Positions 3,785 to 63,101 of a DNA stretch of 64,000 bases are shown here, in pieces. This DNA is from a virus. Taxonomy: Duplodnaviria > Caudoviricetes. The stretch lies in the IMG/VR virus record IMGVR_UViG_3300029288_000081, positions 1 to 64,000 of that record, one strand, 5' to 3'. Numbering within the stretch: position 1 is the stretch's first letter; every line of letters starts with the position of its first letter. The notes beneath the pieces are model-generated. The model had not been told where the DNA came from. It saw only the letters and a list, made by a program, of their open reading frames with translations, and made no database searches. The position numbers and the translations under genes were made by a program.

Positions 3785-5224
3785 ATGACCTGGACCCCCG
3801 ACCAGCTCGCGTTCGTGCGCTCGTGGACCGAGGCCCTCCTCGCGTTCGGTAAGGACGCGTTCGTGCGGGGCACGGTCACGGACGTTGTGGCCTGGGAGGG
3901 TCAGTCGACGCCGAGGTACAGCTCCTTCCACTTCGCCTTCGTGGGCGATGCCGTCAAGCTCGCGACGACATTCGGCTACACGGTCACCGGCGACGAGACC
4001 GACGAGCAGATCAACTCCGGGGCGCGTACCGGACCGATCGCCTCGGCTGCACGCCGGCACCTGCGCGCCAAGCGCATGTCGGAGGACCTGGGTCATGATC
4101 AGATCGTCCTGGCGGACTTCATGGACCGCCTCACGGGCCAGGCCATCGGCGAGTTCTCCCGGGATGAGATGCCGTTCACCGAGGCGTACGGCGCTTGGAT
4201 CTTGAACCCGGGCTACCCCTGGCCAGAGGACGACGCCCAGCCCTTCTCCTACTGGTCGGCGAAGAAGAAGGCGATCATCTCGCCCGAGCGCCCCGGCTGG
4301 CTCATCCGGGTGGAGGACGACTCGAACGGGGAGAACAAGACGGTGCTCGGCGTGAACCCGTGCATGGTCTTCCCCGCCGAGCCGCAGACGCAGGAGTGGC
4401 CGCTCTGGGCACGCGCCAAGACCGTCGACATCATCGTCGCGCACTCGATGACGCTTCCCGCTGACCTGGCTCATGGCTCTCACCTGCCCGCGTCGTACCG
4501 GTACAAGGAGCTGACGCAGGCCATCGAGGGGGTTCGCTCCTGCGGCGGCCTGCTCTTCCCGTCGCTCTCCTACGGTCCGATGCCCGCGTCGAACTTCGGG
4601 CCGCTCACGCTCGTCGGGCACATGGGGCTCGTGCTCGACGGGCTCAAGCCGTACAAGAAGCGCGGCGTCGATCCTGCCGCGTGGGTGTACGAGCACGACG
4701 CCTGGACGATCAAGACCCGCGAGCTGATGACCGGCGTGGCCCAGCGCATCTTCGGCGAGATGCACGGGCACGAGGACTACATCTACGGGCACAACCTCTG
4801 GACGCTTGGGCCACCGGCAGAGCTGTTCGGTGGACCGTCGCAGGGAAGCCGCCCGATCAAGACGGTGGCCCAGCTCATCGCGGTGGCGAAGCGGCGCGGG
4901 AACATCTTCAACCGCTCGATGACCGAGGCGGAGTTCGCGGTGGTGAACGAGCGGGTGTCCGGCACGGTCGACAAGTACGCCTACGGCGAGGCCAAGGGGC
5001 GCAGGGTCATCTCGCTGGACGAGTTCCCGCTCTTCATCGGCCCCGAGCACCAGCGCAGGCAGATGGAGATGTTCGCGAAGGGTGTCGGGTACCGGGGGAA
5101 GATCGTGACCCTCGACGACCCGCTCGGGGTCTCGGAAGACGCGTCGGACTACGTGCTGTACCAGTGGTCGCTCCTCGTCGCCGACGCCATCAAGAAGCTC
5201 GCGCCGCCGATGGAGCTACGTTGA
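3785..5224 (+). CDS. hypothetical protein
   Basis: 479-aa ORF with strong GC3 bias; family not recognised. Confidence 0.75.
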   Translation: MTWTPDQLAFVRSWTEALLAFGKDAFVRGTVTDVVAWEGQSTPRYSSFHFAFVGDAVKLATTFGYTVTGDETDEQINSGARTGPIASAARRHLRAKRMSEDLGHDQIVLADFMDRLTGQAIGEFSRDEMPFTEAYGAWILNPGYPWPEDDAQPFSYWSAKKKAIISPERPGWLIRVEDDSNGENKTVLGVNPCMVFPAEPQTQEWPLWARAKTVDIIVAHSMTLPADLAHGSHLPASYRYKELTQAIEGVRSCGGLLFPSLSYGPMPASNFGPLTLVGHMGLVLDGLKPYKKRGVDPAAWVYEHDAWTIKTRELMTGVAQRIFGEMHGHEDYIYGHNLWTLGPPAELFGGPSQGSRPIKTVAQLIAVAKRRGNIFNRSMTEAEFAVVNERVSGTVDKYAYGEAKGRRVISLDEFPLFIGPEHQRRQMEMFAKGVGYRGKIVTLDDPLGVSEDASDYVLYQWSLLVADAIKKLAPPMELR

Positions 5225-5248
5225 CTGTCTGACACGTGTGGCTACGGT
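5221..5248 (+). promoter_or_regulatory. sigma70-like promoter containing TGTCTGACA
   Basis: TTGACT-N16-TACGGT, palindrome at 5226-5234, GTG start 6 nt downstream. Confidence 0.6.
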
Positions 5249-5254
5249 CGTCGG

Positions 5255-5710
5255 GTGCGTCCCTCGAAGCAGATCGAAACCTTGCGGCGTCTCGGCGTCT
5301 TCAAGAAGCGCGGATGGACGCAGGACGGTGTCGTGTATCGTGTGCGTCGCGGCAAGGTCTGTGTCATCGCGGCAGCCTCGGTCCACCGGAGGTCCGGCAA
5401 TCGCAGGCGAGTAGATGGAACCGGTCGGGATGGACGCATGGACTGGGAGCGTCAGAGGCGTGTGTTGAAGCAGGGGTTCCTTCGCCATGGTCCAGGTAGG
5501 TGGCGGGGGCAGCTTGCGCGTGAGCGCGCCGATCGATGGGATCTGTCGGCGGCTATGGATGAGTGGCTCTACACGTGGGAAACTTGGGCGATGGAGCACG
5601 ACCACTACGACGACGAGTGGGACGATTGGGACGAGACCCGGGACTGCTCTTGGACGGATCTGGGATGGTCGGTGACGTTTGTTGACCTCATGCCGATGTG
5701 GTTGCGCTGA
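5255..5710 (+). CDS. hypothetical protein, basic N-half and Trp/Asp-rich C-half (ETLRRLG motif)
   Basis: ORF directly after promoter; overlaps next start (TGATG). Confidence 0.55.
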   Translation: MRPSKQIETLRRLGVFKKRGWTQDGVVYRVRRGKVCVIAAASVHRRSGNRRRVDGTGRDGRMDWERQRRVLKQGFLRHGPGRWRGQLARERADRWDLSAAMDEWLYTWETWAMEHDHYDDEWDDWDETRDCSWTDLGWSVTFVDLMPMWLR

Positions 5711-6120
5711 TGTCGCGGATTCCACCGCAGATCTCCGAGGCTCTCCCGAAGCTCGTCGAGCTGGCGCAGAAGACGTACGACGAGTGGGATCAGGACGAAG
5801 AGGGCGTCGATGACGAGTTGGGCGTTGGCGGCATCTGCCATCTCATCGCAGAAGAGATCGTCGATGAGCTGAGCGGCCGCGGCCTCGACGCGACGACGGT
5901 CAACGCTCAGGTCGGCGAAAACCACGTGTGGGCTGTGGTCCGGATCGACAGCGGCAAGAACGCAGGCGTCTGGTCGATCGACATCCCGCCGGGAGTGTAC
6001 GAACGTGGCAGCGGTTACGCGTGGAAGAAGCTGCCAGACGTCTCCTTCGAGGTCGACGACATCAACGTCGAACACGAAAGCGCTGACCCGGCCGACTTCG
6101 ACAGATTCATGGAGGACTAG
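5710..6120 (+). CDS. hypothetical acidic protein
   Basis: GGICHLIAE...ENHVW segment; overlapping start. Confidence 0.7.
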   Translation: MSRIPPQISEALPKLVELAQKTYDEWDQDEEGVDDELGVGGICHLIAEEIVDELSGRGLDATTVNAQVGENHVWAVVRIDSGKNAGVWSIDIPPGVYERGSGYAWKKLPDVSFEVDDINVEHESADPADFDRFMED

Positions 6121-6467
6121 CGGTCGGCGCGCTCCAGCTTGCGACGGTCCACGAGATCGATGTCTGCCGCGCAGGAGACGCAGATGTTGAGCCGTACGCC
6201 GCAAGGACGACAGACGCGGTCCGTCTGGGTCGAGGAGTAGCACTGGTCGACCCCGCACGACTCGCACGGCTTGTTCGTGATCGCCTGGCCTCCGATACGC
6301 GACGAGCGTGCGTAGAAGCACCATCGGCACTCGTGCCGCTCCATCCGCTTGGCGCGGTCGAGGTCGGCGAAGGCGCGCTCCGCGTTCGCGATCCACTTGG
6401 CGAGCGCCTGTCGGTTGAACCGCGTCGCGTTCTTCACGTCCTCGATCGTCAGCTTCGGTTGCGCCAC
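6117..6467 (-). CDS. Cys-rich Zn-finger protein
   Basis: four CxxC pairs. Confidence 0.7.
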   Translation of the reverse strand: MAQPKLTIEDVKNATRFNRQALAKWIANAERAFADLDRAKRMERHECRWCFYARSSRIGGQAITNKPCESCGVDQCYSSTQTDRVCRPCGVRLNICVSCAADIDLVDRRKLERADR

Positions 6468-6468
6468 C

Positions 6469-6861
6469 TCAGTACCCGTCCTTGAACCAGCCAGAGCCCT
6501 TCAGGACGAAGCTGGTCGAGCCGGAGATCAGCCGGCGCACGGAGCCGCCGCAGGTCGGCGTGAACGCGGGCGTGTACTCGACGCAGTGGCATCGAGCGCA
6601 GCCGCCAAAGCCGCGCGGAGCGTCGCTGTAGTGCCGGTGCGGAGTCGGATCGTCTCCCTGGCACACGCAGCGGTCCGGGTGCTCGAAGAACGGTCGATAG
6701 TTCCACGAGATGGCCCCGCCGGCCCCGTTGAACGTGTCGAAGCGTTCGACTCGCGTTCGCGCGTCGGGGAGCGGGCAGGCAGCGAGCGGCGCCTCGGAGA
6801 TCTTCCGCTCGACCTCGAACGTCCTCTTGCACTTCTCGCACTCGTACTCGTAGACCGGCAT
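6469..6861 (-). CDS. FmdB-family Zn-ribbon protein with internal insertion
   Basis: MPVYEYECEKC...FEV...CP [insert] CGG..RRLIS...FVLKGSGWF. Confidence 0.8.
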   Translation of the reverse strand: MPVYEYECEKCKRTFEVERKISEAPLAACPLPDARTRVERFDTFNGAGGAISWNYRPFFEHPDRCVCQGDDPTPHRHYSDAPRGFGGCARCHCVEYTPAFTPTCGGSVRRLISGSTSFVLKGSGWFKDGY

Positions 6862-7468: not shown

Positions 7469-7719
7469 GCTCCCTCGGGATCCGTCAGCCGCTTCAGCGC
7501 ACGCGGTCCGCGCGGCGTCTCGATGCGCAGGCAGTCGACTCGGAACCACCTGTCGATGCCCAACTTCTCGTTGATGACGCGAGCATGGTCCCCCGCTGCA
7601 ACGGCCACGACGCACCAGACCCCCACCACCTTGCCATCATGAACGTGAGGCGCGACCACCCGCTGACCGTCGTGGACGTAGCGCGGCGAGTCCCACTTCT
7701 CGTTGATGGCAAGGGTCAT
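7465..7719 (-). CDS. hypothetical protein (C-terminal RALKRL)
   Basis: ATGA overlaps on both sides. Confidence 0.6.
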   Translation of the reverse strand: MTLAINEKWDSPRYVHDGQRVVAPHVHDGKVVGVWCVVAVAAGDHARVINEKLGIDRWFRVDCLRIETPRGPRALKRLTDPEGA

Positions 7720-8114
7720 CGCGAGACCATCCAGAGCACGTGCCGCACGAACGCGCGCGGCGGGCGCACCGCATGCTCGCGGATGTAGTGAGCGAAGCCC
7801 TCGGGCCACACGTACCGACCGTCGGAGAAGTCGGCGGTCCCGTTGTCCTTGCCGCAGATGCGACAGGTCGAGTAGCCCATGTAGCCGGTCGAGCGGAAGC
7901 GCTGGTCGCTGATGTAGGCGAGCACGCGGGCGCGCTCCTTCGGATCCCACTTCGGGTCGACGCAGTCGCGGACGCTGGGCAGGTGCGCTTCCAGAGCGTT
8001 GTTGACGACGATCGCAGCGATGCGCCCGAGCAGGCCAACGCTCTCGAAGGGAAGCCCCGTGGCCTGCCCCTCGGTCTTCCAGAAGCCGACGGGAGTAGGA
8101 TCGATGATCGTCAC
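7716..8114 (-). CDS. hypothetical Zn-binding protein
   Basis: YMGYSTCRICG..NG...VWPEGFAHYI.EH pattern. Confidence 0.75.
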   Translation of the reverse strand: MTIIDPTPVGFWKTEGQATGLPFESVGLLGRIAAIVVNNALEAHLPSVRDCVDPKWDPKERARVLAYISDQRFRSTGYMGYSTCRICGKDNGTADFSDGRYVWPEGFAHYIREHAVRPPRAFVRHVLWMVSR

Positions 8115-59052: not shown

Positions 59053-59691
59053 TCACGGCTTGAGCTTGCCGGCATCGAAGTCGGCGAAGGCCTTGCGCAT
59101 CTTGGCGCAGTACCCCGGGTTCACGCCGCCGTTGTACCTGCGCACGAACTCCTCGACGTCGCCCGCCCTCGCGGCCGCGAGCGCCTTCGGGTTGCTGAGC
59201 AGCCACGCGCCGAGCAGCTTGTCCGAGACCCCCGCCGGGTCGGCGTCGAACGCTGCGACGGCTGCGTTCGCCTCCGGAGCGGTGTCCATCGGGCCCGTGC
59301 CCAGCGCCTTCGGGAACGAGCCTCCGAGCTGCTGGTAGGAACCCCACGAGGACGACAGGACGGCCGAGACCGGGTCGAGCTTCCGTGCTGACTCGAACGC
59401 CTCGCGGTTGGTCTCCATGGCGCTCGACGAGGCCGAGCGAGGCTTGCCGTCTCGGGTGGTGCCGGGTGTGTACGGGACCTTGCCGTTGGCCCACGCGTCG
59501 CCACGCATCTGAGCGGCAGCGACCACCCTGGTTCCTCGGGGAATCTCCCGCACGAGGTCCGAGCGGTACCGCTGGAACAGGTGCGGCTCGAAGCGCACCG
59601 CAGCGGGGTTGCCTCCGCTCTCGACGACGCGCACGCCCACGAGGAAGCGGATCGGGCACTTGGTGCGGTCGGCGACGGCCTGGAGGCTCAT
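59053..59691 (-). CDS. N-acetylmuramidase (DUF3380-like endolysin)
   Basis: VESGG...RFEPHLF...SSSWGSYQQLG...FVRRYNG. Confidence 0.85.
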   Translation of the reverse strand: MSLQAVADRTKCPIRFLVGVRVVESGGNPAAVRFEPHLFQRYRSDLVREIPRGTRVVAAAQMRGDAWANGKVPYTPGTTRDGKPRSASSSAMETNREAFESARKLDPVSAVLSSSWGSYQQLGGSFPKALGTGPMDTAPEANAAVAAFDADPAGVSDKLLGAWLLSNPKALAAARAGDVEEFVRRYNGGVNPGYCAKMRKAFADFDAGKLKP

Positions 59692-59838
59692 GTCGACCTG
59701 TCTGACAGGTTCCAGGGAGAAGGTCAAGAACCGAAGAGGATGATGGTCTTGCTCTGGTCCCGGAGCTGCGGCATGCTCTGGTTTCACGCTTTGCCGCAAG
59801 GTGGAGCACAGCCCCCCGCTGGCTCGGGGGAGTCACCC

Positions 59839-60114: not shown

Positions 60115-60121
60115 GAAGGAG

Positions 60122-60193
60122 AGCCTCCACCCGGACGTGCGCCGGGCTCTCTCGCTTACGAAGCGAGCGCGTCGCTATCTACGCTTTGGAGGC
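60122..60193 (-). tRNA. tRNA-Thr(CGU)
   Basis: loop TTCGTAA; aberrant T loop CGCACGT. Confidence 0.75.
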
Positions 60194-60258
60194 GGAACGT
60201 TTGAGGGCCCTGGATGAGGGCCAGGTGACCTGAGCCAACTAGTCGAACAGGACAGAAG

Positions 60259-60344
60259 CGGAAGTTGGAGGGCACGATCCCCACACCGTGAAGGTGCGCA
60301 CCGCCTAGCAAGCGGGCTCGGCGCCACTCGCCGATTCAACTTCC
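60259..60344 (-). tRNA. tRNA-Ser(GCU)
   Basis: loop TTGCTAG, long V arm. Confidence 0.8.
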
Positions 60345-60590: not shown

Positions 60591-61103
60591 TCATGCCGCC
60601 TTACCGAAGTAGGGCTTCCACGACTCGGGGACGGTCCTGGCGTCGAACTTCTTCGGCACGACGGGCAGCCAGCCCGGCTTCCTGGGCTGCCTCTGGAGCG
60701 GCATCTTTGCCTCGTCGGGGGTGCGGTCACCCTTCTTCGAGTTGCACTTGTAGCAGGCCGCGACGATGTTCTCCCACTCGGTGCGTCCACCGCGCGAGCG
60801 CGGCAGGACGTGGTCGTAGTTGAGCTGGTGGGGCTCGAACTCCTTCCGGCAATACTGGCAGGTGTGACCGTCGCGCAGGAGCACGTTGGCCCGGGAGAAC
60901 TTGATCGACACCTTCCGCGAGCGCGTCTTGCGCGTCATGCGGATGATGCTCGGCATGTGCATGGTGATGGACGGGGACCGGATCACCTCGTCGGTTGACT
61001 CGACCGTCTCTGCCTTCTCGTCGTAGAGGAGGCAGATCGCTCGCTCCCACGAGACGACCCGGCTGGGTTGGTAGAAGGCGTCGAGGACGAGTACGCGCTG
61101 CAT
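60591..61103 (-). CDS. HNH endonuclease (McrA-like)
   Basis: VLVLD...FSRANVLLRDGHTCQYC...DHVLPRSRGG.T.WENIVAAC.KCN. Confidence 0.92.
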   Translation of the reverse strand: MQRVLVLDAFYQPSRVVSWERAICLLYDEKAETVESTDEVIRSPSITMHMPSIIRMTRKTRSRKVSIKFSRANVLLRDGHTCQYCRKEFEPHQLNYDHVLPRSRGGRTEWENIVAACYKCNSKKGDRTPDEAKMPLQRQPRKPGWLPVVPKKFDARTVPESWKPYFGKAA

Positions 61104-61125
61104 GATGATCATCTCCGTGTGGTTG

Positions 61126-61210
61126 TGCGCGGGAGAGGAATCGAACCTCCACGTCCCGAAGGACACCGGTGTTTGAAACCGGCCCCGCCTACCTGTTACG
61201 GCACCCGCGC
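61126..61210 (-). tRNA. tRNA-Leu(CAA)
   Basis: loop TTCAAAC, V arm, A73. Confidence 0.85.
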
Positions 61211-61938: not shown

Positions 61939-61944
61939 AAGAAG

Positions 61945-62028
61945 ATCGTCCGCCCGACCCCCCAGGAACCACGCCCGAGGGTAGGACCCACATCCGACCG
62001 CCTGTGGGGACGGCTCATGCGAACGATC
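61945..62028 (-). ncRNA. unclassified structured RNA in tRNA array
   Basis: terminal stem GATCGTTCGC/GCGGACGATC, inner CCCACA/TGTGGG hairpin. Confidence 0.45.
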
Positions 62029-62029
62029 A

Positions 62030-62173: not shown

Positions 62174-62259
62174 ACGACCGCAGAAGAGAGCGACCTCTGC
62201 GATACACACTGCCTTGCGGCAGCTCGGGGCAACCCCCGACAGCGCCTCGCCCAGCGCAG

Positions 62260-62335: not shown

Positions 62336-62409
62336 TGGACCTGGAGGGCTCCGCCCCCTCCACCTCTCGGGTGCAAACCGAGCGCTCTCCTAGAATGAGC
62401 TACAGGCCC
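62336..62409 (-). tRNA. tRNA-Ala(UGC)
   Basis: loop TTTGCAC, G3-U70; T loop GGCGGAG. Confidence 0.8.
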
Positions 62410-62415
62410 AGATAG

Positions 62416-62627
62416 TTCTGCCGGTGGGAATCGAACCCACACCATTCGCTGCTGCAATCTCTTGTTAGGAAACGCGCTTCCCTAGCGACCAGGGGGCTCC
62501 TTGCCATTCGGTGCATCCGCAACCTCTGAGACCTACCTTCACCCTCTTGCGAGGTAGCCGGCGCAGCGATGCCTTTTACGGTCGTCGGCTCCGTTTTTCC
62601 GATGCTCTTCCGTTGAGCTACGGCAGA
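62416..62627 (-). ncRNA. 212-nt tRNA-like RNA with about 140-nt structured insertion in place of the anticodon arm
   Basis: TCTGCCG/CGGCAGA acceptor, GCTC/GAGC D arm, GTGGG-TTCGATT-CCCAC T arm. Confidence 0.75.
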
Positions 62628-62700
62628 TCGTCGCGCCGGGTTCCGCCCCCGGGGCCTCCTGCTTGTCGAGCAGGTGCTCTTCTACCTGAGCTACGCGACG
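62628..62700 (-). tRNA. tRNA-Val(GAC)
   Basis: loop TCGACAA (C33); T loop GGCGGAA. Confidence 0.7.
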
Positions 62701-62858: not shown

Positions 62859-62861
62859 AAG

Positions 62862-62935
62862 GGTGATCGACCGGACTTGAACCGGCTTGGACTGCGGCCA
62901 CAACGCAGCGCCTCGACTCTTCGGCCTCGACCACC
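62862..62935 (-). tRNA. tRNA-His(GUG)
   Basis: loop TTGTGGC; encoded G-1 and C73. Confidence 0.88.
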
Positions 62936-62950
62936 ATGACTATCAGAGAG

Positions 62951-63098: not shown

Positions 63099-63101
63099 AG
63101 A

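What the first reader, a model, noticed from the sequence alone, without database searches (positions are those of the whole stretch)
62416..62627. tRNA body with about 140 nt of structured RNA replacing the anticodon arm
Seen: intact acceptor, D and T arms flank an insert. The insert has a possible H-type pseudoknot (ACGG/CCGT, GCC/GGC with an AAAA linker), a CCTC-GCAA-GAGG hairpin, a CCCTGG/CTAGGG hairpin and a long-range TCGCTGC/GCAGCGA pairing. It lacks the G3-U70 alanine pair of tmRNA and is shorter than typical group I introns. Inference: either a new tRNA-scaffolded ncRNA using tRNA processing for maturation, or a small intron needing protein-dependent ligation, for which RtcB is present.
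Basis: partly seen in the sequence, partly recalled or inferred. Interest (0 to 1): 0.75.

Follow-up and report, generated by a model that had tools for sequence, protein, structure and literature searches.

The report
tRNA-shaped RNA, probable Ro60 partner
This 212-base gene in a phage tRNA cluster makes an RNA with the outer shape of a tRNA but no anticodon; it carries a large, highly conserved extra arm, belongs to an uncatalogued family found in many phages and some soil bacteria, and is most likely a new form of the "Y RNA" partner of the RNA-surveillance protein Ro60.

Summary
The element is real. On the minus strand, 62627->62416, a perfect 7-bp acceptor stem, a D arm and a T arm enclose about 160 nt. 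It is not a one-off. I collected 26 distinct homologues from jumbo phages, metagenomes and Myxococcota genomes. Their acceptor stems all differ, 96% of cells pair, and 33 of 47 pairs show compensatory change.

The insert does not replace the anticodon arm. A short hairpin with an invariant AAAACGG loop keeps that position. The bulk is a giant variable arm ending in a near-invariant 59-nt irregular hairpin.

Rfam 15 has no match. It is not tmRNA, because true tmRNAs coexist with it. It is not a group I intron or an RtcB-ligated intron, because no splice restores an anticodon arm and complete phages that carry it lack RtcB.

The core carries the CGAA/GAAUG motif of Ro60-binding Y RNAs. The element lies directly upstream of Ro60-like genes in two phages. 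All 10 myxobacterial genomes with it encode Ro60. This phage itself has no Ro60.

Best reading, about 50%: a tRNA-framed Y-like RNA matured by tRNA processing.

The scan found this family before on other DNA.

The parts
62416..62627 (-). Whole tRNA-framed RNA gene, 212 nt. RNA position 1 is window 62627 and the discriminator A is window 62416.
   Evidence: Read. Covariance model R1 scores it 192.1 bits, against 44 bits or less for ordinary tRNAs.
62621..62627 (-). 5' strand of the acceptor stem, UCUGCCG.
   Evidence: Pairs 7/7 with 62417-62423. All 7 pairs show compensatory change across 26 members.
62417..62423 (-). 3' strand of the acceptor stem, CGGCAGA. The discriminator A is at 62416 and CCA is not encoded.
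62604..62618 (-). D arm, GCUC-AACGGAA-GAGC, with G18 G19.
   Evidence: helix 2, 95.9% paired. The A15-U48 Levitt pair covaries with G15-C48 in other members.
62585..62602 (-). Hairpin at the anticodon-arm position: stem UCGG/CCGA with a 10-nt loop holding the family-invariant AAAACGG. It is not a decoding loop.
   Evidence: 98.1% paired and all 4 pairs have compensatory change. Loops are 9-14 nt across the family.
62570..62584 (-). Linker and small hairpin, CC-GUAAAA-GG. Other subtypes have a GNRA-capped hairpin such as CUC-GAAA-GAG here.
   Evidence: helix 4. This is weak in this copy.
62563..62569 (-). Helix Pa, 5' strand UCGCUGC: the base of the giant variable arm.
   Evidence: Pairs with 62446-62452. 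About 80% paired with many pair types across the family (helix 5).
62533..62562 (-). Lineage-variable hairpin domain, including CUACC...GGUAG and the GGGUGAAGG block. Other type-1 members have GGGUGUGGG.
   Evidence: The alignment is unreliable here.
62528..62532 (-). Helix Pb, 5' strand GUCUC, which encloses the conserved core.
   Evidence: Pairs with 62457-62461. 84% paired and all pairs have compensatory change (helix 6, 123).
62467..62525 (-). Conserved core: one irregular 59-nt hairpin. Its stems are AGG/CCU, UGCG/CGCG, C-A-CC/GGG and UGGC/GUCG (from GGUCG), then AG/CU closing a 7-nt loop. Its internal loops are GAUG/AAG and GAA/CUA.
   Evidence: Predicted by RNAalifold and supported (helices 7-10, 98-100% paired). 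The sequence GCACCGAAUGGC is present in 24/26 members.
62507..62510 (-). CGAA motif at the stem/internal-loop junction of the core, within GCACCGAAUGGC. This is the candidate Ro60 contact.
   Evidence: The same (C/U)GAAUG motif heads YrlA-like RNAs of phages G001 and G002. The motif is defined in PMC4201824 and PMC12135203.
62457..62461 (-). Helix Pb, 3' strand GAGAU.
62446..62452 (-). Helix Pa, 3' strand GCAGCGA, followed by AUGGU (62441-62445), which corresponds to the end of the variable region.
62424..62440 (-). T arm, GUGGG-UUCGAUU-CCCAC.
   Evidence: helix 11, 99.2% paired.
62628..62700 (-). Context: tRNA-Val(GAC). Its discriminator abuts position 1 of the element, so one RNase P cut would free both ends.
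62336..62409 (-). Context: tRNA-Ala(UGC), which begins 6 nt after the element's discriminator.

Best explanation
The element is a gene for a tRNA-framed non-coding RNA of a conserved family that Rfam does not hold. It most likely acts as a Y-RNA-like partner of Ro60 (Rsr).

Proposed mechanism:
1. It is transcribed as part of the tRNA array.
2. RNase P and the 3' tRNA-processing enzymes cut it out like a tRNA. CCA is then probably added, because the acceptor, D and T arms and the tertiary Levitt pair are kept.
3. It cannot decode. The anticodon position holds a short hairpin with a 10-nt AAAACGG loop.
4. A giant variable arm of about 144 nt displays a near-invariant stem-bulge-stem hairpin. Its GCACCGAAUGGC strand carries the CGAA motif used by Y RNAs to dock Ro60.
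5. Because this phage encodes no Ro60, the RNA would engage the host's Rsr. The tRNA-like body would give stability and perhaps a second contact, for example with PNPase or another tRNA-binding factor.

Shown here: the gene, the family, the fold, the motif, and the linkage to Ro60 genes in other genomes.
Inferred only: expression, processing, Ro60 binding, and the effect on the host.
For: Family and fold:
- 26 distinct members were found by DNA patterns in viral, metagenome and species-genome collections.
- Model R1 separates members (108-216 bits) from tRNAs (44 bits or less).
- 96.1% of cells are paired against 74.7% in shuffles (0/500 reach it). 33 of 47 pairs show compensatory change. Slid controls give 37-53%.
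- The R15-Y48 pair covaries.

Ro60 link:
- In complete jumbo phage G002 the order on one strand is a YrlA-like RNA, then the element (182574-182794), then a Ro60-like gene beginning about 30 nt later. That gene scores vWA_Ro60 52 bits and TROVE 27 bits.
- In metagenome contig L060 the element lies about 1.1 kb upstream of a Ro60-like gene on the same strand. That gene is 50% identical to the G001 protein.
- Complete phage G001 also encodes Ro60, 22 kb from the element, amid several YrlA-like RNAs.
- In 32 Sandaracinaceae genomes, 9 carry the element and 18 carry vWA_Ro60. All 9 carriers are Ro60-positive. My hand-computed hypergeometric P is about 0.0017.
- A Polyangiaceae carrier is also Ro60-positive.

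Motif:
- The core strand GCAC(C/U)GAAUGGC matches the 5' Rsr-site region of YrlA-like RNAs of the same phages: GCACUGAAUGC, GGCGAAUGC and GACGAAUGC.
- It contains the GNCGAAN0-1G/CGAA motif described for Rsr and phage Ro60 binding (PMC4201824; PMC12135203, where each CGAA base affects binding).
Against: - This phage has no TROVE or vWA_Ro60 gene, even at permissive thresholds, and no YrlA-like RNA. Its relative L078's genome bin also shows none.
- In the bacterial chromosomes the element is megabases away from rsr. In G034 it is at 4.40 Mb and rsr is at 1.59 Mb. A YrlA-like RNA already sits beside rsr.
- The putative Ro60 site lies in an internal hairpin, not in the 5'/3' terminal stem as in every described Y RNA. 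Relative to the helix end it runs in the opposite sense.
- The pairing around CGAA differs from that in YrlA.
- Rfam's YrlA and Y_RNA models do not match it.
- A 6-nt motif match alone is weak evidence.
- The co-occurrence statistic ignores phylogeny and the incompleteness of metagenome-assembled genomes.
Confidence: 0.5

Rival explanations
1. It is a tRNA-scaffolded RNA whose conserved arm serves some partner other than Ro60. Examples are a decoy or sponge for a tRNA-targeting defence enzyme, a ligand-binding aptamer, or an adaptor for another conserved tRNA-handling machine. On this reading the Ro60 neighbourhood only reflects the general clustering of RNA-repair and tRNA genes in phages.
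For: - This phage, judged complete, has no Ro60.
- The bacterial copies are not next to rsr.
- The core is near-invariant across phages with 29-71% GC. That points to a universally conserved target.
- The AAAACGG loop is also invariant and is not explained by the Ro60 model.
- The family always sits among tRNAs in phages.
Against: - The element directly abuts a Ro60-like gene in G002 and is close to one in L060.
- 10 of 10 bacterial carriers are Ro60-positive.
- The motif is shared with neighbouring YrlA-like RNAs.
- No alternative partner is indicated by any conserved neighbouring gene. Chromosomal contexts differ between genera.
Confidence: 0.35
2. It is a tRNA gene interrupted by a small intron that an endonuclease removes and the phage RtcB re-ligates.
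For: RtcB, interrupted by an intein, is encoded at 48994-51213. ARAGORN in intron mode forces a tRNA-Arg(ACG) call with a 118-nt intron.
Against: - The ARAGORN model has a 4-bp stem and 27 unpaired bases.
- An exhaustive scan finds no excision that gives a 5-bp anticodon stem with a U33 loop and a normal variable loop.
- The hairpin loop is 9-14 nt in all members.
- The array already covers all 20 amino acids once the tRNA-His at 62860-62949, read by eye, is counted.
- RtcB is absent from complete carriers G001 and G002.
- Rfam finds no group I or ribozyme match.
Confidence: 0.03
3. It is a miniature or variant tmRNA.
For: - It has tRNA-like ends around a structured middle.
- One member, L053, has G3-U70, A73 and an encoded CCA.
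- Most members have a short frame GCA CCG AAU GGC ... UAG.
Against: - This copy has U3-A70 and a full D stem.
- The frame is broken in L061, L073, L076 and L079, where the hairpin is 2 nt shorter, and L049 lacks the stop.
- The UAG varies only together with its pairing partner (pair 200-228).
- A true tmRNA (101.8 bits) lies immediately upstream of the element in L066.
- Standard tmRNAs exist in 5 of 5 carrier genomes.
- ARAGORN and Rfam tmRNA models do not match.
Confidence: 0.02
4. It is a dead tRNA gene disrupted by junk DNA. The array does contain decaying tRNAs.
For: - The element is absent between Val(GAC) and Ala(UGC) in three related arrays (L045/L046, L047, L048).
- Remnants of tRNA-Glu(CUC) and tRNA-Thr(CGU) lie at 60115-60259.
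- The single-sequence fold energy is unremarkable.
Against: - 26 homologues keep the frame and core under clear purifying and compensatory selection.
- The family is present in unrelated phages and in bacterial chromosomes.
- The related phage contig L078 has it at the equivalent array position.
Confidence: 0.02

Closest known systems
YrlA-type bacterial and phage Y RNAs (Rfam RF02553; Chen et al. 2014, PMC4201824) and phage phiLo Yrl1/Yrl2 (PMC12135203)
   Same: - It combines a tRNA-like module (D arm, T arm, acceptor-like stem, Levitt pair) with a stem-bulge-stem that carries the CGAA/GAAUG motif.
- It is encoded just upstream of Ro60-like genes in two phages.
- It co-occurs with Ro60 in bacterial genomes.
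- It probably relies on RNase P and CCA addition, as shown for M. smegmatis YrlA.
   Different: - In YrlA the tRNA module is internal and circularly permuted, and the RNA ends lie in the Ro60-binding stem. Here the ends form a true 7-bp acceptor stem, and the putative Ro60 site is an internal hairpin at the tip of a giant variable arm.
- This RNA is about twice as long, 198-251 nt.
- It has an extra invariant AAAACGG hairpin.
- The RF02553 model does not match it.
- Bacterial copies lie far from rsr, and this phage has no Ro60.
Class II tRNAs with long variable arms (Ser, Leu, bacterial Tyr, Sec)
   Same: It has a canonical 7/5 acceptor-T minihelix, a D arm, an R15-Y48 pair, and an extra arm that leaves between the anticodon stem and the T stem. 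The discriminator is G73 in 21/26 members, as in tRNA-Ser and tRNA-Sec.
   Different: The variable arm is about 144 nt rather than 10-20 nt, and it is conserved in sequence. There is no 7-nt anticodon loop and no U33. tRNA models score only the frame.
tmRNA (RF00023)
   Same: It has tRNA-like ends enclosing a structured domain, it lies in phage tRNA clusters, and one member has alanine-type G3-U70.
   Different: It has a full D stem, no conserved tag frame and no pseudoknot series. It is roughly 100-150 nt shorter. It coexists with genuine tmRNA in L066 and in the bacterial genomes.
Stable RNAs of unknown function in phage tRNA clusters, such as T4 rnaC/rnaD (species 1 and 2). This comparison is from memory and from earlier scan notes and was not tested here.
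   Same: These are non-decoding stable RNAs encoded inside phage tRNA clusters and released by tRNA-processing enzymes.
   Different: No sequence relationship was tested. A blastn search of 50,697 GenBank phage records with this element found no match to the core.

Membership tests
tRNA (RF00005) | 7-bp acceptor stem, D arm and T arm with tertiary-pair nucleotides | tested here: met
   acceptor 7/7, D and T arms over 95% paired, and R15-Y48 covaries.
tRNA (RF00005) | 5-bp anticodon stem with a 7-nt loop, U33 and an anticodon | tested here: not met
   The hairpin is 4 bp with a 10-nt loop AAAAACGGAG. No excision restores an anticodon arm. Loops are 9-14 nt in the family.
tRNA (RF00005) | Detected by the Rfam tRNA model or by default ARAGORN | tested here: not met
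   Searches give only a 14.6-bit T-arm fragment.
Group I intron in a tRNA gene | Match to the group I core (P3-P8, G-binding P7) and an insertion in the anticodon loop that leaves a functional tRNA after splicing | tested here: not met
   No Intron_gpI hit at E up to 10. The cargo is about 144 nt and sits in the variable-arm position. No splice gives a tRNA.
tmRNA | G3-U70 alanine identity, no D stem, and a conserved tag reading frame with a stop | tested here: not met
   This copy has U3-A70 and a D stem. The frame is broken in several members. The stop covaries as a base pair. Real tmRNAs coexist.
Y RNA / YrlA | CGAA (GNCGAAN0-1G) motif in a stem-bulge-stem | tested here: met
   CGAA is at window 62507-62510, at the junction of a helix and an internal loop. 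GCACCGAAUGGC is present in 24/26 members. The motif is shared with YrlA-like RNAs of G001, G002 and G006. It is defined in PMC4201824 and PMC12135203.
Y RNA / YrlA | Encoded next to a Ro60 (TROVE + vWA) gene | tested here: inconclusive
   Met in G002 (about 30 nt upstream) and L060 (about 1.1 kb). Not met in this phage, which has no Ro60, nor in G001 (22 kb away), nor in bacterial chromosomes (megabases away).
Y RNA / YrlA | Ro60 site lies in the stem formed by the RNA's 5' and 3' ends; the tRNA-like module is internal | tested here: not met
   The ends form a tRNA acceptor stem, and the motif lies in an internal hairpin of the variable arm.
Y RNA / YrlA | Match to the Rfam YrlA model | tested here: not met
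   Only 23.7 bits against a gathering score of 69, and that match spans the T arm of the element and the D arm of the next tRNA.
Y RNA / YrlA | Physical binding to Ro60/Rsr | not testable with these tools
   This needs immunoprecipitation or EMSA.

The most novel reading that the evidence does not exclude
The family is a new functional class: a fully tRNA-shaped, CCA-tailed and possibly aminoacylated adaptor. Its giant arm would recruit Ro60 or another conserved factor to the tRNA-handling machinery (EF-Tu, the ribosome, PNPase), or would shield phage tRNAs from host tRNA-targeting defences. On this reading the tRNA frame is a working part and not merely a processing handle, and bacteria of the Polyangia use the same device chromosomally.
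Probability: 0.15. Interest if true: 0.85.

Novelty: new variant of a known kind. Interest (0 to 1): 0.66.

Why it matters
Bacterial Y RNAs are known to mimic tRNA, but nobody knows why. Every described example hides the tRNA module inside the RNA.

This family turns the design around. A complete tRNA body with free acceptor ends carries the putative Ro60-docking helix as a side arm. If Ro60 binding is confirmed, it offers a natural experiment on what the tRNA module contributes: processing, CCA addition and stability, or recruitment of a second factor.

It would also widen the known range of phage interference with host RNA surveillance. For comparison, phiLo Ro60-Yrl complexes attenuate PNPase (PMC12135203).

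Practical points:
- It is an uncatalogued RNA family. The covariance model separates it cleanly from tRNAs, and it is currently unannotated or mis-read as an intron-bearing tRNA in phage tRNA arrays.
- It is a natural precedent for the "tRNA scaffold" used to express recombinant RNAs.

Tried and rejected
Searches for relatives of the phage:
- Exact 31-mer search of viral contigs found nothing.
- Searches with a wrong-frame ORF, the muramidase, RtcB and HNH in IMG/VR gave no relatives, only intein hits, or only distant hits.
- Large related contigs found through the muramidase and the 172-aa protein either lack the tRNA array at that locus or had no DNA available.
- Whole-record search of ENA/Logan contigs is not possible.

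Searches for the element itself:
- The D-arm pattern search returned ordinary tRNA-Thr and tRNA-His genes and unrelated oddities.
- A paralogue search among 130 array tRNAs found no donor tRNA for the frame.
- Among the 10 species-genome loci from the core pattern, L074 lies in a coding region with no T arm and is a false positive.

Readings considered and rejected:
- ARAGORN intron mode gave an unconvincing tRNA-Arg. Low-threshold ARAGORN tRNA-Val(AAC) and permuted-tmRNA calls are noise.
- I weighed TPP riboswitch, 5S rRNA, RNase P, SRP, K-turn, loop E and tetraloop-receptor resemblances by eye. I dropped them because Rfam gave no hit, or because the covariation supports different pairings.

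Other checks:
- The TROVE model alone is too insensitive for the divergent Ro60s. vWA_Ro60 worked.
- A pattern search with 2 mismatches in Sandaracinaceae added only doubtful hits. One of these was in the unpublished genome G036. None of these hits is used for any claim.
- The 172-aa phage protein is not found in G018 or G022, so the host of this phage remains unassigned.
- Integrase genes are not near the chromosomal copies.

Full report
**Setting.** The window is the first 64 kb of a 171,466-bp, 65% GC IMG/VR phage record that CheckV judges complete. A minus-strand array of about 33 tRNA genes runs from 64379 down to 59877. Two HNH endonuclease genes and several structured spacers interrupt the array. 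The finding lies in the gap between tRNA-Val(GAC) (62628-62700) and tRNA-Ala(UGC) (62336-62409).

**The observation.** Read on the minus strand, the 212 nt from 62627 to 62416 have these parts:
- a perfect 7-bp acceptor stem, UCUGCCG/CGGCAGA, with discriminator A;
- a normal D arm, GCUC-AACGGAA-GAGC;
- a normal T arm, GUGGG-UUCGAUU-CCCAC.

Position 1 directly follows the discriminator of tRNA-Val. Default ARAGORN and Rfam at its gathering thresholds report nothing here. Rfam at E up to 10 gives only a T-arm fragment and a spurious YrlA hit that spans the element's T arm and the next tRNA's D arm. The minimum free energy of the single sequence is not unusual (z = -0.97). The sequence alone therefore cannot show that the middle part is structured.

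**Not a tRNA with an intron.** ARAGORN in intron mode forces a tRNA-Arg(ACG) with a 118-nt intron, but that model has a 4-bp stem and 27 unpaired bases. I enumerated every possible single excision. None yields a class-I anticodon arm with at least 4 bp. Only one weak candidate, with two G-U pairs and anticodon AAC, appears if a long variable region is allowed. The array already covers all 20 amino acids: a tRNA-His with G-1/C73 is visible by eye in the 62860-62949 gap.

**Finding relatives.** GenBank phages hold nothing similar. Protein anchors located related phages in public assemblies: the muramidase at 59053-59799, the 172-aa protein upstream of the array, and the HNH at 60591-61166.
- Four syntenic arrays (L045-L048; HNH 79-87% identical) place tRNA-Ala(UGC) 4-7 nt after tRNA-Val(GAC). 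They lack the element.
- A contig related to this phage, L078, carries the element right after tRNA-Ile(GAU) at the equivalent array position. L078 is binned in a metagenome-assembled genome, and its 172-aa protein is 63% identical to this phage's.

The element therefore behaves like a gene that comes and goes within arrays.

**The family.** A pattern taken from the 5' part of the insert hit two complete jumbo phages of 392 and 424 kb. Their copies have the same architecture but different acceptor stems. Patterns from the conserved core then recovered more copies from three sources:
- IMG/VR;
- JGI metagenomes (18 loci);
- one-genome-per-species collections (10 loci, mostly Sandaracinaceae and Polyangiaceae).

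After removing duplicates there are 26 distinct members of 198-251 nt, from DNA of 29-71% GC. The covariance model built from them gives members 108-216 bits and ordinary tRNAs at most 44 bits. This window's copy scores 192 bits.

**Structure.** On the model-guided alignment:
- 96.1% of cells form standard pairs, against 74.7% in shuffles (0 of 500 shuffles reach it);
- controls in which the pairing partners are slid along the alignment give 37-53%;
- 33 of 47 pairs show compensatory change.

The alignment was fitted to the model, so these counts lean slightly in its favour.

The fold, from 5' to 3':
- the acceptor stem, in which all 7 pairs covary;
- the D arm;
- a 4-5 bp hairpin at the anticodon-arm position, whose 9-14 nt loop always contains AAAACGG;
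- a small hairpin that is GNRA-capped in some subtypes;
- a long-range helix Pa, UCGCUGC/GCAGCGA in this copy;
- a lineage-variable hairpin domain;
- a helix Pb, GUCUC/GAGAU;
- a 59-nt irregular hairpin inside Pb that is almost invariant;
- a short stretch, (A)UGGU, then the T arm.

The R15-Y48 Levitt pair switches between A-U and G-C, which argues for a genuine L-shaped tRNA body. The cargo is therefore a giant variable arm. It is not a replacement of the anticodon arm.

- GCC/GGC overlaps the covarying hairpin.
- ACGG/CCGU has no compensatory support.
- CCCUGG/CUAGGG is contradicted by pairs such as 200-228, where C-G changes to G-C in L049 and to U-A in L060.

**What it is not.**
- tmRNA. 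This copy has U3-A70 and a D stem. The apparent short frame ending in UAG is broken in members whose hairpin is 2 nt shorter, and in L049. The UAG varies only together with its pairing partner. A genuine tmRNA (101.8 bits) lies immediately upstream of the element in L066. Standard tmRNAs exist elsewhere in five carrier genomes.
- Group I intron or known ribozyme. Rfam 15 gives nothing even at E = 10 for six different members.
- RtcB-dependent intron. RtcB is present in this phage at 48994-51213, with an intein. It is absent from both complete jumbo phages that carry the element.

**The Ro60 lead and my tests of it.** Earlier notes of this scan, on other genomes, proposed that a 246-nt member of this family is a Ro60-linked Y RNA. 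I treated this as a lead and tested it four ways.

(i) Ro60 genes in the carrier phages. Both complete jumbo phages encode a divergent Ro60. It scores vWA_Ro60 at 52-53 bits and TROVE at 27 bits, both above their cut-offs.

(ii) Gene order.
- In G002 the order on one strand is a YrlA-like RNA (182875-183013), the element (182574-182794), then the Ro60-like gene starting about 30 nt later.
- In metagenome contig L060 the element (7573-7795) lies about 1.1 kb upstream of a Ro60-like gene (4915-6501) on the same strand.
- In G001 the two are 22 kb apart, within a region rich in YrlA-like RNAs.

(iii) Co-occurrence in bacteria. Among 32 Sandaracinaceae genomes the model finds the element in 9. This is a lower bound, because only 72 candidates per genome were scored. 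vWA_Ro60 is found in 18 of the 32. All 9 carriers are Ro60-positive, giving a hypergeometric P of about 0.0017. I computed that figure by hand, and it is not corrected for phylogeny or genome completeness. A Polyangiaceae carrier is Ro60-positive too.

(iv) Motif.
- Chen et al. (PMC4201824) define GNCGAAN0-1G near the 5' end as the likely Rsr site.
- The phiLo study (PMC12135203) shows that each base of CGAA in a stem-bulge-stem contributes to phage Ro60 binding.
- The core hairpin has GCACCGAAUGGC in 24 of 26 members. The other two have GGAA and UGAA variants, each with a compensating partner. The CGAA sits at a helix/internal-loop junction.
- The YrlA-like RNAs of the same phages and of a Sandaracinus genome begin with GCACUGAAUGC, GGCGAAUGC or GACGAAUGC.

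**Evidence against the Ro60 reading.**
- This phage has no TROVE or vWA_Ro60 gene, even at permissive thresholds, and no YrlA-like RNA. It would have to use a host Rsr, and the host is not established.
- In the bacterial chromosomes the element sits among ordinary housekeeping genes. Neighbours include AstB and an Fe-S oxidoreductase, an ABC1 kinase, and DabA with iPGM. It lies megabases from rsr, not near any integrase, while a YrlA-like RNA already flanks rsr.
- The motif lies in an internal hairpin, not in the terminal stem, and the pairing around it differs from YrlA.

Membership in the YrlA family is therefore not claimed. The claim is that the RNA works like a Y RNA, at roughly even odds.

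**Mechanism proposed.**
- Shown: the gene, its family, its fold, its motif, and its genomic linkage.
- Inferred: it is co-transcribed with the array; RNase P and the 3' tRNA-processing enzymes release it, and a single RNase P cut would also create the 3' end of tRNA-Val; CCA is added; Ro60 docks on the CGAA hairpin of the variable arm; and the tRNA body gives nuclease resistance and perhaps a second contact, such as PNPase in RYPER-type complexes.

The invariant AAAACGG loop is not explained by any model.

**Novelty and score.** The family is absent from Rfam 15 and from the papers I could search. The closest described RNAs are YrlA-type Y RNAs, from which it differs in topology, size and model match. 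This scan noted the same family before on other DNA (e1-5712825, e1-5712842, and e1-984664, whose acceptor tcccgcg is that of my L078). I rate it a new variant of a known kind, with interest about 0.66. It is a real, widespread, uncatalogued RNA with a testable link to an open question, namely why Y RNAs mimic tRNA. Function and expression remain unproven.

Noticed in passing
window 48994-51213 (-): The RtcB RNA ligase gene is split by an intein of roughly 310 aa. Pfam RtcB positions 1-50 and 49-426 match about 930 bp apart in one open frame. The only IMG/VR relatives found matched the intein part.
   Followed up: partly
window 62860-62949 (-): A tRNA-His(GUG) with G-1 and C73 and an odd D arm is visible by eye. 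Both ARAGORN and the Rfam tRNA model miss it. It completes the 20-amino-acid set of the array.
   Followed up: partly
window 60115-60259 (-): This spacer aligns with intact tRNA-Glu(CUC) and tRNA-Thr(CGU) genes of the related contig L017. It is therefore a pair of decaying tRNA genes, which shows turnover within the array.
   Followed up: partly
window 60591-61166 (-) and 63240-63637 (-): Two HNH endonuclease genes sit inside the tRNA array. The first is 79-88% identical in related phages at the same position. Several assemblies break inside it, which suggests presence/absence polymorphism.
   Followed up: partly
window 48476-48556 (+), next to tRNA-Ile(GAU) at 48559-48631: An 81-nt tRNA with an enlarged anticodon arm lies beside the RtcB gene. 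ARAGORN reads a 4-base anticodon, gcga. It is conserved in relative L017 (9256-9336).
   Followed up: no
window 61940-62029, 62174-62258, 63099-63167 (-): Three tRNA-sized spacers in the array fold into strong hairpins (-43.5, -43.4 and -29.3 kcal/mol) but are not tRNAs. They may be further non-tRNA RNAs or tRNA remnants.
   Followed up: no
L066:42-391 (+) and L066:477-717 (+): In this metagenome contig a genuine tmRNA (Rfam 101.8 bits) lies about 85 nt upstream of a member of the family.
   Followed up: partly
G001:C1 101-127 kb and G002:C1 182-204 kb: The two jumbo phages carry 8-9 YrlA-like hits each (up to 62 bits, below Rfam's gathering score of 69), clustered near their Ro60-like gene. 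This may be an unusually large Y RNA repertoire.
   Followed up: no
L092:3104-3667 (+), G034 chromosome: SmpB, the tmRNA partner protein, is encoded about 5 kb from the chromosomal copy of the element in two Sandaracinaceae genomes. The synteny is conserved, but four unrelated genes lie between them, so this is probably coincidence.
   Followed up: no
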